This document shows positions 5,489 to 8,787 of a stretch of 12,967 nt of DNA, in pieces. The stretch is taken from the UHGV virus genome UHGV-0805728, one strand, 5' to 3'. Numbering within the stretch: position 1 is the stretch's first letter; the number at the start of each line of letters is the position of its first letter. This DNA is from a virus. The notes beneath the pieces were generated by a model. That model saw only the letters and a list, made by a program, of their open reading frames with translations. It ran no database searches and was not told the origin of the DNA. A program made the position numbers and the translations under genes.

Positions 5489-5839
5489 TTACTGCAACAG
5501 TTTTTCAATAGCCGCTTCCATGCTGCTTGCAACAGCCTGAACTCGGATATTCATCTCTTCTTGGTGGATCAGCTCCTTAAGCTCTTTAACGGTAAATTCC
5601 TTAGAGAAACCTTCCACCATAATATTGTGTAAGGCTTCTTGCGTGTCTACTTGCAAGAACTTCTCCAGTTTGTTGGCAGAGGCTTCTAAATCAGCCCGAA
5701 TACGAGGATCATCTGTGCGATTCAGCATTAGGCGCAAGCCATCGAGATTAGTAGAAATAGCGTCAGCATGTTGAGTAACTAGCCGTGGCAAAATGAGATC
5801 TACAAACTTATTAGCCAAATCAATACGTTCTTGTGTCAC
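5489..5839 (-). CDS. hypothetical protein (116 aa), predicted helical
   Basis: ORF-track; GTG start at 5839 preceded by GAGGGGG and overlapping the TGA of the 37-aa Lys-rich ORF (GTGA). Confidence 0.6.
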   Translation of the reverse strand: MTQERIDLANKFVDLILPRLVTQHADAISTNLDGLRLMLNRTDDPRIRADLEASANKLEKFLQVDTQEALHNIMVEGFSKEFTVKELKELIHQEEMNIRVQAVASSMEAAIEKLLQ

Positions 5840-5949
5840 TGTTGCACCCCCTCTTCGTCCTCATGATGTTTCTTTTCACGCTTGTGTTTTTTCTTAAGCT
5901 CAAGCGCAATCTCTTTTTTGTACGCCTTCTTCAAGGCCTTTTTAGCCAT
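5836..5949 (-). CDS. small Lys-rich basic peptide (37 aa)
   Basis: ATG at 5949 preceded by AGAGGGGG and by consensus promoter P2; product MAKKALKKAYKKEIALELKKKHKREKKHHEDEEGVQQ. Not in ORF track (under 60 aa). Confidence 0.4.
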   Translation of the reverse strand: MAKKALKKAYKKEIALELKKKHKREKKHHEDEEGVQQ

Positions 5950-6013: not shown

Positions 6014-6487
6014 TTAGTCTACCTGAACCCACCCACCTGCTACTTTTTTAAACATTCTTTGGTTATCGCTTCCTCGGAACGGTTTCTTGGTTGGCAAATC
6101 TTTTATATACTTACCATCAATGATGATATCAGCCAGTTTAAGAACATCACTAGAGATATGGTCAAATGTGAACCCAGTATACACAAGAATAGTTTTCTTG
6201 TCACCAAATTTTTCCTTAATTTTCTCCATCAGGCCAATAATACCTGGCTCATTATAGTATGCCAAGGGTTCTCCACCCAGCAGAGAGATACCGCACACAG
6301 ACGGGTTGTCCAAATCTGACAAGATTTTTTGCAAGTCTTCCTCGGTGAACTCTCTCCCCTTATCTTTTGACCAAAATGCCTGATTAAAGCAACCAGGGCA
6401 AGCGTGTGGGCACCCAGATACCCACAAGGCAGTTCTAATACCTGGCCCTTCGGTGTAAGATATTTCTGTGTATCCGGCAATGTTCAT
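6014..6487 (-). CDS. nrdG: anaerobic ribonucleotide reductase activating protein (radical-SAM activase), 157 aa from ATG 6487
   Basis: Cys cluster GCPHACPGCFN characteristic of NrdG-type activases; the ATG at 6487 has an ACGGAG ribosome-binding site and an ATGA overlap with the upstream small ORF. The ORF-track start at 6505 has no ribosome-binding site. Confidence 0.85.
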   Translation of the reverse strand: MNIAGYTEISYTEGPGIRTALWVSGCPHACPGCFNQAFWSKDKGREFTEEDLQKILSDLDNPSVCGISLLGGEPLAYYNEPGIIGLMEKIKEKFGDKKTILVYTGFTFDHISSDVLKLADIIIDGKYIKDLPTKKPFRGSDNQRMFKKVAGGWVQVD

Positions 6488-6600
6488 AGATACTCCGTAC
6501 CACATTCAGGGCAATACCAAATAAAATCATCCAGCGCCTTGCACCAACGAAGATTACAATGACAACCGCACTTGCAAATTTTATAAATACCTGTAGACAT
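6484..6600 (-). CDS. small Cys-rich zinc-ribbon-like protein (38 aa)
   Basis: ATG 6600 preceded by GAGG at about 8 nt; product MSTGIYKICKCGCHCNLRWCKALDDFIWYCPECGTEYL with 7 Cys (CKCGCHC...CPEC); stop overlaps the nrdG ATG (ATGA). Not in ORF track (under 60 aa). Confidence 0.4.
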   Translation of the reverse strand: MSTGIYKICKCGCHCNLRWCKALDDFIWYCPECGTEYL

Positions 6601-6630
6601 ACTGCACCTCATAGTTCACTGTGTATCAAC

Positions 6631-6660
6631 AATATGCCACATCCTTGTGACTTTTGTCAA
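6631..6660 (-). promoter_or_regulatory. candidate sigma70-type promoter P3 (perfect -35 TTGACA, weak -10 CATATT or TATTGT)
   Basis: TTGACA at 6660-6655 begins 3 nt after the nrdD stop, as in P1 and P2; the -10 element is only a 4/6 match. Confidence 0.3.
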
Positions 6661-6663
6661 GCA

Positions 6664-6903
6664 TCAGCAACCACAACTTCCATAGTGCTTAACTCGCTCG
6701 ATAACTTCAGCTTGCTTGCCTCTATTGTAAGGACGTGAGTTAGGACTGGAAAGGTATCCAGACACACGTCGAATTACACTGATCGTTCCCTCTTCGTGGT
6801 TTCCACAGTCTGGACATACAAAGCCTTTAGCTGTCGCGCTGAACTCACCAGAGAAACCACACTTGAGACATTTATCCACGGGCTGGTTAATACCAAAATA
6901 CAT
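6664..6903 (-). CDS. nrdD: anaerobic ribonucleotide reductase NrdD, C-terminal glycyl-radical/zinc-ribbon segment (third frame piece)
   Basis: YFGINQPVDKCLKCGFSGEF...CPDCGNH...RRVSGYL matches the recalled E. coli NrdD C-terminus (YMGINVPVDRCFECGFTGEF...CPKCGNH...RRVCGYLG); its frame is open only from 6909 and overlaps the central ORF. Confidence 0.8.
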   Translation of the reverse strand: MYFGINQPVDKCLKCGFSGEFSATAKGFVCPDCGNHEEGTISVIRRVSGYLSSPNSRPYNRGKQAEVIERVKHYGSCGC

Positions 6904-8555
6904 AATGTGTTATACCCGAAGTCAACAAGAGCCTCTAAAGCATCCAGGTTGTTTTTCAGGTTAGGTGTCTCTATGTATCCAATGTTGCCACCAGAGGAGA
7001 TCATAGCAAAACCTTCTTCATACTTCCACTTATCAAAAGGTGAACTATTGATCCATACTGGTTGGTGGAAACTGTTGGTGATATATTCATGCTCGTGCTT
7101 CAATACCTCAGGATATTCACGATCCAGACAGGTTGCAGCTTTGTAGCATAAGCTTTCAGAAGGGGTGCCGTACAAGCTGAATGCTAGACCACTTTCCTTT
7201 TTGTACCGATCACAAGCATCTTTCATGTGCTGAAGGATTCCAAGAGCTAAAGCCTTGTCTCCCTCTCTCCCCAAAATCTGACAGGTTTCATACACACCAA
7301 TATACCCAATACTGATGGAAGCGTACCCGTCATAGAAGAGTTTATCAATACTCTCTTCAGGATCCAAGCGAGCAAGAGCGCCTTCACACCACATGATGGG
7401 GTTCTGACCTGCCTTTGTCCCTTTTAGGCGGTTAACCCTTACAAGGTGAGCTTCATATGCCAAATCCAGATACTCGTCAAGAACGGTAAAGAAGTCAACA
7501 CCTTCTGTTTTAGCTTTTGCTGCAATCATTGGTAGGTTGAGGCTAACAACACCCAAGTTGAATCTGCCGAGGTATTTCTCCTCACCTGTTTCTAAGTCAT
7601 TGTATTTGCTAAGAAAACTCCGGCAACCCATGCTCGTTACTTTGCCATCTGTAGAACCTGTCACCTTACGATTTAGCGGAACAGAAACAAAGTCAGGATA
7701 AATTCGCTCTGCAGAGCATTCCAGAGCTAATCGTTTCAAATCATAGTTAGGATCCTCAGGGTTCATGTTGACACCCTCTTCTAAGAAGAACAGCACTTTA
7801 GGGAACACAGGTGTGATCCGTTCTTCACCAAGACCCATTTTGTGGACTTTCAGGTAGTTTTTGGTAATCATTCTACCAAATACCGAGGTATCAAGTCCTA
7901 AACTTAATGTTATGAACGGAGTTTGCCCGTTGACAGAAGTTAATGTGTTGATTTGATAAAGCAACGTCTGCATACTGTCAAACACGTCTTTATCGGTCAT
8001 CTGCATTGCAACGCCTTCAGCATCCGGCAACCAATGCTCCTGACAAAATTTAAGGTTCTTCTCATAGGTAGCTTCAGCATACTGTGCCAGATAATGATCA
8101 ATATGGCTCATAGTCTGACCACCATATTGAGCACTAGCCACTGCACTAGAGATTTGGCTAAGGATTGTTGTTGCAACCCCTATTGACTTAGGCTTGCTGA
8201 CATGGGCGTTACCAATGTTGAATCCGTTTTCCAGCATATCTGGATAATTTACCAAACAACAGTTTGTTAGAGGGCTGATCAGATAGTCAAGATCATGTAC
8301 ATGGATGAAGCCTTTTATTGTGCTCTTCGGAGACACGGTCTGGCAGGATCTGTGTTGATGCAAGGTGTTTGCTAAGGATGCCTGCAAGCAGGTCACGATG
8401 AGTGTGTACATGATTGGTAGGCTTATTTGCGTTTTCTTTTGTAAATTCATCACAAGTGCGATCCAAGAAGCCACTAATATCTGCAAGAAGTTTTCCACCT
8501 GCCTCTCTGTTATTATCCCTTGTCTGTCTGTATTGGATGTATTCTCTGGCTGCAC
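6774..8555 (-). CDS. nrdD: anaerobic ribonucleotide reductase NrdD, central catalytic segment (second frame piece)
   Basis: From about 8315 the frame reads KGFIHVHDLDY...NIGNAHVSKPKSIG...QYGGQT, collinear with recalled E. coli NrdD (GDIHYHDLDY...MGNAEIEPPKSIS...IYGGTT). The first ~80 and last ~43 residues of the 593-aa ORF look out-of-frame. Confidence 0.85.
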   Translation of the reverse strand: MQPENTSNTDRQGIITERQVENFLQILVASWIALVMNLQKKTQISLPIMYTLIVTCLQASLANTLHQHRSCQTVSPKSTIKGFIHVHDLDYLISPLTNCCLVNYPDMLENGFNIGNAHVSKPKSIGVATTILSQISSAVASAQYGGQTMSHIDHYLAQYAEATYEKNLKFCQEHWLPDAEGVAMQMTDKDVFDSMQTLLYQINTLTSVNGQTPFITLSLGLDTSVFGRMITKNYLKVHKMGLGEERITPVFPKVLFFLEEGVNMNPEDPNYDLKRLALECSAERIYPDFVSVPLNRKVTGSTDGKVTSMGCRSFLSKYNDLETGEEKYLGRFNLGVVSLNLPMIAAKAKTEGVDFFTVLDEYLDLAYEAHLVRVNRLKGTKAGQNPIMWCEGALARLDPEESIDKLFYDGYASISIGYIGVYETCQILGREGDKALALGILQHMKDACDRYKKESGLAFSLYGTPSESLCYKAATCLDREYPEVLKHEHEYITNSFHQPVWINSSPFDKWKYEEGFAMISSGGNIGYIETPNLKNNLDALEALVDFGYNTLCILVLTSPWINVSSVVSLVSSARQLKALYVQTVETTKRERSV

Positions 8556-8787
8556 ATTTTAAACCCATATCCATAAGAGCATCTTCAACAAGGATATGGA
8601 TATTTTTTACAGAGATTGTGCCCTGATCGGCTGGTAGATTGTTAGCAACAGCTTCATTAACCGCGCAGGCGATCCGGTAAGCTTCTTCTTCAGTATGTCC
8701 AGACTCAAGTAAGGCGGACTCTGCCGCCTTGATCACCTTAATTCCGTTATAGACCTCTTCTCTACCGTCTCGTTTTACAACTTTCAC
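8293..8787 (-). CDS. nrdD: anaerobic ribonucleotide reductase NrdD, N-terminal ATP-cone segment (first frame piece)
   Basis: MKVVKRDGREEVY... and ENANKPTNHVHTHRDLLAGILSKH match the NrdD N-terminus (recalled E. coli NENANKDSKVIPTQRDLLAGIVAKH); ATG 8787 overlaps the nrdC stop (ATGA); frame ends at 8293 right after an A4 run. Confidence 0.8.
   Translation of the reverse strand: MKVVKRDGREEVYNGIKVIKAAESALLESGHTEEEAYRIACAVNEAVANNLPADQGTISVKNIHILVEDALMDMGLKCAAREYIQYRQTRDNNREAGGKLLADISGFLDRTCDEFTKENANKPTNHVHTHRDLLAGILSKHLASTQILPDRVSEEHNKRLHPCT

What the first reader, a model, noticed from the sequence alone, without database searches (positions are those of the whole stretch)
6484..6660. Unannotated 38-aa Cys-rich ORF between nrdD and nrdG, with promoter-like -35 box upstream
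Seven cysteines in 38 residues (CKCGCHC...C...CPEC) suggest a zinc-ribbon or metal-binding peptide. It has its own ribosome-binding site, overlaps the nrdG start by ATGA, and follows a TTGACA hexamer that begins 3 nt after the nrdD stop. A small metal-binding partner coupled to the radical-SAM activase could plausibly act in Fe-S or electron delivery, but this is speculative.
Basis: partly seen in the sequence, partly recalled or inferred. Interest (0 to 1): 0.55.

Follow-up and report, generated by a model that had tools for sequence, protein, structure and literature searches.

The report
Mobile cysteine-rich mini-gene in coliphages
The 38-codon cysteine-rich reading frame between the phage nrdD and nrdG genes is a real, strongly conserved small gene, but the same gene also sits in front of a DNA ligase gene in an unrelated phage that has no nrdD/nrdG, so it is probably a free-moving accessory zinc-binding mini-protein and not a dedicated partner of NrdG.

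Summary
On the minus strand, ATG 6600 to TGA 6484 encodes MSTGIYKICKCGCHCNLRWCKALDDFIWYCPECGTEYL (7 Cys). It has a GAGGTG ribosome-binding site and an ATGA overlap with nrdG. A TTGACA-18-CATATT (TG-extended) promoter-like site starts 3 nt after the nrdD stop.

The window is an rV5-like Vequintavirus. The ORF is a genuine gene. It is open in all 13 distinct sequence variants. Third codon positions vary in 23 of 32 codons, against 4 of 32 second positions. Pairwise pN/pS is mostly 0.05-0.3. All seven Cys are invariant.

It is already catalogued as phrog_20137 and annotated "hypothetical protein" in many relatives. rV5 itself calls an out-of-frame ORF there, and phage Murica calls a terminator.

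The NrdG-partner idea is not supported:
- phAPEC8 has nrdD and nrdG overlapping directly, and about 2,000 other nrdG-bearing phage records gave no match to the ORF.
- An 80% identical copy, with homology confined to the ORF, sits between the nucleotide kinase and DNA ligase genes of podophage ACG-C91, which has no NrdD/NrdG. That slot is empty or holds unrelated mini-ORFs in sister phages.

Best reading: a mobile, zinc-ribbon-like accessory mini-protein with an unknown target. Interest is modest.

The parts
6484..6600 (-). Small CDS, 38 aa plus TGA: MSTGIYKICKCGCHCNLRWCKALDDFIWYCPECGTEYL. It is a member of phrog_20137, with 7 invariant Cys. The conserved core is residues 7-38.
6605..6610 (-). 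Shine-Dalgarno-like GAGGTG, 4 nt before the ATG
   Evidence: aligned with GGAGGTG in relatives
6631..6660 (-). Sigma-70-type promoter-like site: TTGACA (6660-6655), 18-nt spacer, TG-extended CATATT (6636-6631). Conserved in JohannBauhin and rV5. Replaced where homing endonuclease genes are inserted upstream.
   Evidence: The rV5 authors report sigma-70-like promoters with extended -10 regions across the genome (PMC3606486).
6014..6487 (-). nrdG, the class III RNR activase (157 aa, Fer4_12/Radical_SAM). Its ATG overlaps the small ORF stop as ATGA.
6664..8787 (-). nrdD, the class III RNR (ATP-cone, NRDD and glycyl radical domains, with its own C-terminal CxxC...CxxC zinc ribbon). In this window it reads in three frames because of two 1-nt indels in A-runs at about 8316 and 6911.

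Best explanation
The ORF is a genuine protein-coding mini-gene of virulent coliphages (family phrog_20137). It encodes a single-domain, zinc-ribbon-like, metal-binding peptide of about 32 core residues.

Expression is with the early/middle nucleotide-metabolism genes. The likely signals are a sigma-70-type promoter directly after nrdD and the ORF's own Shine-Dalgarno sequence.

It is not a subunit of the NrdD/NrdG system. It is an ORF-sized mobile accessory cassette that lands exactly at the start codon of a resident gene: nrdG in Vequintavirus, DNA ligase in ACG-C91-like Vectrevirus. It is tolerated there because its stop overlaps the resident ATG (ATGA), so the downstream gene is still translated by re-initiation.

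Shown here: coding status, purifying selection, invariance of the Cys set, the narrow phage-only distribution, the two unrelated genomic contexts, and the empty and alternative states of both insertion slots.

Inferred:
- Zn(Cys)4 binding by Cys9/11 plus Cys30/33, with Cys13/15/20 forming a second or shared site.
- Promoter activity.
- The peptide acts on its own by binding a host or phage macromolecule. Its near-neutral charge and conserved Trp, Tyr and Phe residues favour a protein target over nucleic acid.
For: Coding and constraint:
- It is the only frame open in 13 of 13 variants.
- Variable sites by codon position are 9, 4 and 23.
- L004 against L010 shows 13 synonymous and 2 non-synonymous differences.
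- The core stays 84-94% identical between phages whose NrdG is only 50-57% identical.

Family and distribution:
- phrog_20137, E = 5.9e-27 over the full length.
- Only 5 clusters among 5.8 billion proteins.
- Only 3 further true hits among 1.84 billion cluster representatives.
- Nothing in 5,426 complete E. coli genomes.

Independence from NrdG:
- Copies in ACG-C91 and in loci L005-L007 lie between a DUF3310 nucleotide kinase gene and the DNA ligase gene.
- DNA homology there is limited to ATG...TATGAAYAT.
- ACG-C91 has no NrdD or NrdG.
- phAPEC8 has nrdD and nrdG overlapping directly.
- rV5, L015 and A51.2 have the ORF uncoupled from a different nrdG allele.

Slot plasticity:
- The Vectrevirus junction is empty in LL11. 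In K1E it holds an unrelated 38-aa CxxC...CxxC ORF, and in vB_EcoP_B an unrelated 57-aa ORF. All are bounded by the same ATG and ATGAATAT.
- Homing endonuclease genes are inserted next to the ORF in SophiaRose, A51.2 and L010.
- Other phages hold unrelated ORFans at the nrdD-nrdG junction.

Zinc-ribbon reading:
- Canonical CKHCG and CKDCG variants exist.
- Weak zinc-ribbon matches only.
- AlphaFold2 places a beta-hairpin around CPEC.
Against: - No function, partner or metal has been measured.
- The AlphaFold2 model is low-confidence (pLDDT 51.8), and no profile match reaches significance, so 'zinc ribbon' rests on motif geometry.
- Within Vequintavirinae the ORF keeps its place next to nrdG even across divergent nrdG alleles and endonuclease insertions. 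That could reflect a functional link and not only inherited gene order.
- E. coli has its own NrdD/NrdG, so the ACG-C91 context does not strictly exclude action on the host enzymes.
- Promoter evidence is a consensus match only.
Confidence: 0.6

Rival explanations
1. The peptide is a dedicated metal or Fe-S/electron-transfer partner (rubredoxin-like) of the radical-SAM activase NrdG, or of NrdD, in class III ribonucleotide reduction.
For: - It is adjacent to and ATGA-coupled with nrdG in the window and in most Vequintavirus genomes.
- Its position is retained beside nrdG in the divergent relative L010, where NrdG is 57% identical.
- It has seven invariant Cys, and the motif 'DDFIWYCPECG' is reminiscent of the rubredoxin second knuckle. 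That resemblance is from my own knowledge, not a tool result.
Against: - The same gene sits in ACG-C91-type podophages. ACG-C91 has no NrdD or NrdG, and there the gene is coupled to DNA ligase.
- It is absent from phAPEC8, and about 2,000 other nrdG-bearing phage records gave no match to the peptide. CB7 numbers NrdG and NrdD consecutively (PMC7344957).
- It is uncoupled from nrdG in rV5-type genomes.
- No Rubredoxin or ferredoxin Pfam match appeared even at E <= 1.
- Inserts at other phages' nrdD-nrdG junctions are not zinc-ribbon-like.
Confidence: 0.1
2. A Com-like zinc-ribbon RNA-binding regulator that activates or tunes translation of the gene immediately downstream (nrdG or ligase).
For: - The best, though sub-threshold, Pfam match is Zn_ribbon_Com: E = 0.025, 14.4 bits against a cut-off of 22.9.
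- It is always immediately upstream of another gene. In the two coupled contexts the homology runs into the shared first codons ATGAAYAT (MNI) of the downstream gene.
Against: - The match is not significant.
- The downstream genes and mRNA sequences differ completely beyond 8 nt.
- In rV5-type genomes about 150 nt and another ORF follow instead.
- The peptide is near-neutral, not basic.
- There is no stable RNA structure in the region (z = +0.58) and no Rfam match.
Confidence: 0.08
3. A decayed fragment or trans-acting DNA-binding zinc finger of a homing endonuclease, hitch-hiking in an endonuclease hotspot.
For: - Homing endonuclease genes lie directly upstream of it in SophiaRose, A51.2 and L010, and inside nrdD in FFH2.
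- A zinc-ribbon repeat of the second SophiaRose nuclease gene (the one splitting the PhoH-like gene, L004:4998-5927) reads IICKSCGCKF...GCPEC, which resembles the ORF.
Against: - BLASTP similarity is confined to 7-8 residues (E = 0.009 and 0.033 in single comparisons).
- The ORF is under strong purifying selection as a complete unit.
- ACG-C91 has no endonuclease gene adjacent to the copy.
- The profile search of 1.84 billion proteins found no endonuclease relatives.
Confidence: 0.07
4. Not this gene. The stretch is a non-coding nrdD-nrdG spacer carrying a terminator (as annotated in Murica), or the real gene is the out-of-frame 75-aa 'membrane protein' ORF 114 annotated in rV5.
For: - Murica annotates a terminator inside it, and the scan finds a weak hairpin followed by T-rich sequence at 6547-6531.
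- rV5 annotates ORF 114 over it.
Against: - The RNA fold is no better than shuffles (z = +0.58).
- The ORF 114 frame carries stop codons in 7 of 13 variants, whereas the Cys frame is open in 13 of 13.
- Variation is concentrated at third positions of the Cys frame.
Confidence: 0.03

Closest known systems
PHROG family phrog_20137 (38-aa profile, labelled 'ribonucleotide reductase'), and the corresponding 'hypothetical protein' CDSs in Vequintavirus records such as JohannBauhin bas53_0180 and FFH2 gp178
   Same: Full-length match, E = 5.9e-27. Same length, the same position between nrdD and nrdG, and 84-95% identity.
   Different: Nothing differs; the ORF is a member. The family has no characterised function. 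Its 'ribonucleotide reductase' label looks like naming by adjacency, because the same gene sits next to DNA ligase in ACG-C91.
Small stand-alone zinc ribbons: Mu Com (Pfam PF10122), archaeal RNA polymerase subunit P, ribosomal protein eL43/L37Ae
   Same: Two Cys knuckles about 18 residues apart, an 'IW[HY]CPxC[GD]' second knuckle, and a size of 36-54 aa. These are the only weak profile hits.
   Different: No significant sequence match. Three extra invariant Cys (13, 15, 20). The first knuckle is CxC in most members, not CxxC. The peptide is not basic.
Promoter-plus-ORFan cassettes (PeSL modules) of T4-type phages and 'morons' (Arbiol et al. 2010, PMC2839356)
   Same: A small ORFan preceded by a sigma-70-like promoter, sitting in a plastic junction. 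That paper lists nrdD among the genes associated with PeSLs. Distribution across phages is patchy.
   Different: Homology between the two phage families stops at the ORF boundaries (ATG and ATGAAYAT), not at shared promoter/stem-loop linkers. There is no convincing stem-loop terminator. In ACG-C91 the ORF has no promoter of its own.
Class III RNR accessory components (NrdG activase; flavodoxin, formate or thioredoxin as reductants)
   Same: Genomic adjacency to nrdD and nrdG, and a cysteine-rich sequence.
   Different: It does not co-occur with nrdDG outside one phage subfamily, and it is present in a phage without nrdDG. To my knowledge no small zinc or Fe-S subunit is known for this system.

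Membership tests
phrog_20137 | Full-length match to the family HMM | tested here: met
   E = 5.9e-27, residues 1-38 on profile positions 1-38 of 38
Zinc ribbon (e.g. Pfam Zn_ribbon_Com PF10122) | HMM score above the curated gathering threshold | tested here: not met
   14.4 bits against a cut-off of 22.9, E = 0.025. PDB profile search: best E = 0.16.
Zinc ribbon (e.g. Pfam Zn_ribbon_Com PF10122) | Two CxxC-type knuckles flanking a beta-hairpin region | tested here: inconclusive
   The second knuckle CPEC is invariant. The first is CKCG (CxC) in the window but CKHCG or CKDCG in relatives. The AlphaFold2 hairpin at residues 28-37 comes from a model with pLDDT of only 52.
Zinc ribbon (e.g. Pfam Zn_ribbon_Com PF10122) | Binds one Zn through four Cys | not testable with these tools
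   Needs metal analysis of the purified peptide
Class III ribonucleotide reductase system component | Co-occurs with nrdD/nrdG across lineages that carry the system | tested here: not met
   About 130 records match the ORF against 2,136 with NrdG. phAPEC8 has nrdD and nrdG overlapping directly.
Class III ribonucleotide reductase system component | Not found in genomes lacking nrdD/nrdG | tested here: not met
   Present in ACG-C91 (E = 1.8e-18), which has no NrdD or NrdG hit
Rubredoxin / ferredoxin-type electron carrier | Match to the Rubredoxin or Fer4 profiles | tested here: not met
   No such family listed at E <= 1 in Pfam or NCBIfam
PeSL / moron-type mobile ORFan cassette | Own sigma-70-like promoter immediately upstream | tested here: inconclusive
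   Consensus match of 10 of 12 with TG extension, conserved in relatives. Activity not measured. Absent in the ACG-C91 and SophiaRose contexts.
PeSL / moron-type mobile ORFan cassette | Patchy presence, with empty or alternative states of the same slot in close relatives | tested here: met
   The Vectrevirus slot is empty or holds three different ORFs. Empty state in phAPEC8.
PeSL / moron-type mobile ORFan cassette | Flanking conserved promoter/stem-loop repeats that mediate recombination | tested here: not met
   Inter-family homology ends at ATG and ATGAAYAT. No significant RNA or DNA hairpin.
Homing endonuclease (T5orf172 / GIY-YIG / HNH) fragment | Significant similarity to an endonuclease domain | tested here: not met
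   Only 7-8-residue BLASTP matches. No endonuclease among the profile hits.

The most novel reading that the evidence does not exclude
The peptide would be a horizontally mobile, seven-cysteine metal-cluster mini-protein. It hops between start codons of nucleotide- and DNA-metabolism genes of unrelated virulent coliphages. It would act on a host target, for example by neutralising a defence or a nucleotide-pool regulator, which would explain why two unrelated phage families keep it under stronger constraint than the neighbouring NrdG.
Probability: 0.25. Interest if true: 0.55.

Novelty: already known. Interest (0 to 1): 0.3.

Why it matters
As it stands, this is an ordinary catalogued but uncharacterised phage ORFan. 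The value of the check is mostly corrective.

- The annotations in rV5 (an out-of-frame 'membrane protein') and Murica ('terminator') are probably wrong.

What is mildly interesting is the clean example of an ORF-exact cassette shared by a myovirus and a podovirus, inserted at start codons with an ATGA overlap, and kept under tighter constraint than its enzyme neighbour. If its target were found, it could add a 32-residue metal-binding module to the list of phage host-manipulation tools.

Tried and rejected
- AlphaFold2 on the 5-sequence alignment gave pLDDT 51.8. This is too poor for fold searches, so none were run.
- The profile search of 1.84 billion cluster representatives gave three long-protein hits (P0008, P0010, P0011). 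All are repeat or low-complexity artefacts.
- The genome-contig hit L016 is a Bacteroidales 196-aa protein that shares only the 'FIWHCPECG' knuckle. I rejected it as a homolog.
- Similarity to the nearby homing endonuclease zinc-ribbon repeats, to the NrdD C-terminal zinc ribbon and to the K1E slot peptide is not significant.
- PADLOC and NCBIfam gave nothing, and Rfam gave nothing. RNA structure is no better than shuffles.
- A PeSL-type stem-loop promoter cassette was considered. Other intergenic promoters in the window share the TTGACA and -10 layout but no conserved hairpin.
- Literature searches found no study of this peptide.
- Co-folding with NrdG could not be run, because the structure tool takes single chains only.

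Full report
**What is in the sequence.** The feature lies on the minus strand.
- nrdD ends at 6664.
- TTGACA occupies 6660-6655. After an 18-nt spacer ending in TGG comes CATATT (6636-6631).
- GAGGTG lies at 6610-6605, and ATG at 6600.
- The ORF runs to TGA 6486-6484 and encodes MSTGIYKICKCGCHCNLRWCKALDDFIWYCPECGTEYL. That is 38 aa with Cys at 9, 11, 13, 15, 20, 30 and 33.
- The stop overlaps the nrdG ATG (6487-6485) as ATGA.

The promoter scan lists the TTGACA/CATATT pair as 10 of 12 matches with a TG extension. Such matches are only modestly enriched over shuffles. An upstream in-frame ATG at 6612 is not conserved, because relatives have TAG there.

**Where the window comes from.** The window is a Vequintavirus (rV5-like myophage of E. 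coli).
- It is 97.8% identical to OX460980 and about 94% identical to about 100 GenBank genomes.
- It is 99.95% identical, with no mismatches and three 1-nt indels, to metagenome contig CYGL01000294.1.
- Flanking genes are nrdD (NRDD and glycyl-radical domains, with its own C-terminal zinc ribbon) and nrdG (Fer4_12/Radical_SAM).

**It is a real gene.** I collected 13 distinct nucleotide variants of the ORF from phage records, IMG/VR, metagenomes and Logan assemblies.
- The Cys-rich frame is the only one of six frames open in all 13. The frame that rV5 annotates as ORF 114 has stop codons in 7 of 13.
- Across the 32-codon core (12 distinct core sequences), variable sites fall 9, 4 and 23 on codon positions 1, 2 and 3. 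Each of the seven Cys codons varies between TGC and TGT while always encoding Cys.
- Pairwise Nei-Gojobori counts give pS 0.17-1.0 against pN 0-0.13. For example, SophiaRose against L010 shows 13 synonymous and 2 non-synonymous differences.
- The core stays 84-94% identical between phages whose NrdG proteins are only 50-57% identical.
- The RNA does not fold better than shuffled sequence (z = +0.58), and no Rfam family matches. The 'terminator' annotated inside it in phage Murica is therefore not supported.

**It is already catalogued.**
- The peptide matches phrog_20137 over its full length (E = 5.9e-27).
- It is annotated as a 117-nt CDS in many relatives. It is 'hypothetical protein' in the BASEL phages and 'ribonucleotide reductase' in RefSeq FFH2.
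- Annotation is inconsistent elsewhere. The rV5 type record and its 2013 paper call an overlapping out-of-frame 75-aa 'membrane protein' (ORF 114) and leave the Cys frame uncalled (PMC3606486 supplement). Several records have nothing annotated there.

**The family is tiny and phage-only.**
- The 5.8-billion-protein search returned 5 clusters.
- A profile search of 1.84 billion cluster representatives added only a 41-aa variant, a 54-aa variant and a truncated fusion. The other hits are repeat artefacts.
- IMG/VR, JGI metagenomes and GTDB genomes added no new lineage.
- There is no copy in 5,426 complete E. coli genomes. The single 'plasmid' hit is a 137.5-kb record of rV5-like size in which the match lies next to nrdG, probably an rV5-like phage genome.

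**The link to NrdG does not hold.**
- In the nearest outgroup found with the system, phAPEC8 (NrdG 49% identical), nrdD and nrdG overlap directly and no ORF lies between them.
- Pectobacterium phage CB7 numbers NrdG and NrdD as consecutive genes (PMC7344957).
- 2,136 phage records match NrdG, whereas about 130 match the small ORF.
- Other phage groups do carry inserts at this junction, but they are unrelated, and none has a zinc-ribbon-like Cys pattern.
- Inside Vequintavirus, rV5, A51.2 and L015 carry the ORF followed by its own TAA stop, about 150 nt, a 78-81-aa ORF and a different nrdG allele. There is no translational coupling in these genomes.

**The same gene in an unrelated phage.** An 80% identical copy (about 85% at the DNA level) lies in podophage vB_EcoP_ACG-C91 (Autographiviridae, Vectrevirus) and in three Logan assembly loci of the same type.
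- There it sits between a DUF3310 'nucleotide kinase' gene and the DNA ligase gene, again with an ATGA overlap onto the downstream start.
- ACG-C91 has no NrdD or NrdG by annotation or by tblastn.

**How it got there.** Homology between the two phage families begins at the ATG and ends at TATGAAYAT. That stretch is the ORF plus the first codons (Met-Asn-Ile) that nrdG and the ligase gene happen to share.

The Vectrevirus junction exists in four states, bounded by the same ATG and ATGAATAT:

| Phage | State of the kinase-ligase junction |
|---|---|
| LL11 | empty (TGATATGAATATC) |
| ACG-C91 | this ORF |
| K1E | an unrelated 38-aa CxxC...CxxC peptide |
| vB_EcoP_B | an unrelated 57-aa ORF (phrog_15259) |

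The nrdD-nrdG junction of Vequintavirinae is similarly busy. Homing endonuclease genes are inserted directly upstream of the ORF in SophiaRose, A51.2 and L010, and inside nrdD in FFH2.

My inference is that this is an ORF-sized cassette that integrates at start codons through short microhomology. The ATGA overlap then preserves translation of the resident gene. Coupling would be a condition for tolerating the insertion, not a sign of partnership. Arbiol et al. described comparable promoter-plus-ORFan modules in T4-type phages and listed nrdD among the plastic loci (PMC2839356). Here, however, the shared sequence does not include promoter or stem-loop linkers, so I treat that only as an analogy.

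**What the protein probably is.**
- Invariant residues are K7, C9, K10, C11, G12, C13, C15, L17, R18, W19, C20, K21, L23, D24, D25, I27, W28, C30, P31, C33, E36, Y37 and L38.
- Two variants have one extra residue that turns CKCG into the canonical knuckles CKHCG and CKDCG. One variant adds a Lys/Glu-rich N-terminal tail.
- The geometry is a CxxCG knuckle, 18 residues, then CPxC[GDN]. This is the geometry of a single zinc ribbon.
- The only profile hits, all non-significant, are zinc ribbons: Com at E = 0.025, eL43 'IWHCPKCG', and RpoP.
- AlphaFold2 gives a hairpin around CPEC but only pLDDT 52, so I did not run fold searches.
- The three further invariant cysteines (13, 15, 20) imply a second or shared metal site. 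This cannot be resolved with these tools.
- The peptide is near-neutral and rich in conserved aromatic residues. That makes a protein target somewhat more likely than nucleic acid (inference).

**Rivals.**
- A dedicated NrdG/NrdD redox partner remains possible at about 10%. The ORF stays beside nrdG across divergent Vequintavirinae, and the host has its own NrdDG.
- A Com-like translational regulator, a homing endonuclease relic, and a non-coding or alternative-frame reading are each less likely, for the reasons given in the rival entries.

**Verdict.** The feature is a known but uncharacterised phage ORFan family. The modestly new points are its exact-ORF transfer between a myovirus and a podovirus, its start-codon insertion mode, and the correction of several database labels.

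Noticed in passing
window ~8316, ~6911 and ~3685 (minus-strand genes nrdD and the ClpP-like protease gene): Against the otherwise identical public contig CYGL01000294.1 (L011), the window has three 1-nt indels and no mismatches. There is an extra A at about 8316 and a missing A at about 6911. Both fall in A-runs inside nrdD, which therefore reads in three frames. A third missing A at about 3685 lies at the 3' end of the ClpP-like protease gene. nrdD is intact in L011 and JohannBauhin. These look like sequencing or assembly errors, not pseudogenes.
   Followed up: partly
window 6010-5981 (-): A perfect sigma-70 consensus, TTGACA-18-TATAAT, lies directly after the nrdG stop. It precedes a 37-aa Lys-rich ORF (5836-5949, phrog_7670). 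The equivalent site is annotated as promoter P118 in rV5.
   Followed up: partly
L017 773-889 (phage K1E); L018 773-946 (vB_EcoP_B); L019 (LL11): The nucleotide kinase-DNA ligase junction of Vectrevirus phages is a four-state hypervariable slot. It can be empty, hold the Cys-rich ORF, hold an unrelated 38-aa zinc ribbon (MTCPNCGSEETEHVVMSDTYHFYFCHSCDTTIEEEEAV), or hold a 57-aa ORF. All states are bounded by the same ATG and ATGAATAT.
   Followed up: yes
L002 (FFH2), L004 (SophiaRose), L021 (A51.2), L010: The nrdD-nrdG region of Vequintavirinae is a homing endonuclease hotspot. An HNH gene splits nrdD in FFH2. T5orf172/GIY-YIG-type genes lie between nrdD and the small ORF in SophiaRose and A51.2. 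L010 has an HNH gene in the same place and nrdD in two pieces. SophiaRose also has an endonuclease gene splitting the PhoH-like gene.
   Followed up: partly
L015 3501-3974, L021 2501-2974, L024 1502-1975: Vequintavirus genomes carry one of two nrdG alleles that are only about 52% identical. The second allele comes with a 78-81-aa ORF (phrog_3249, mislabelled 'minor capsid protein') between the small ORF and nrdG.
   Followed up: partly
GenBank MG0656xx 'Campylobacter phage' records; PLSDB CP057073.1: Eighteen records named Campylobacter phage match this E. coli rV5-like window at roughly 92-94% identity over the 1-kb query, which suggests mislabelling or contamination. A 137.5-kb E. coli 'plasmid' record that carries the small ORF next to nrdG is probably an rV5-like phage genome.
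   Followed up: no
L024 936-1163 (rV5 ORF 114); L023 451-474 (Murica): Database annotations conflict over this stretch. rV5 calls an out-of-frame 75-aa 'membrane protein' and Murica calls a terminator. Some MN850xxx records list 'putative minor capsid protein' among the features under the match. PHROG labels the family 'ribonucleotide reductase'. None of these is supported by the frame and substitution analysis.
   Followed up: yes
P0009 and P0002 (vB_Eco_Alma): Two database proteins are disrupted versions of the ORF. P0009 is a deletion that fuses residues 1-20 to the downstream 81-aa ORF. P0002 is a frameshifted 61-aa read-through. The gene may be dispensable in some isolates, or those assemblies may contain errors.
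   Followed up: no
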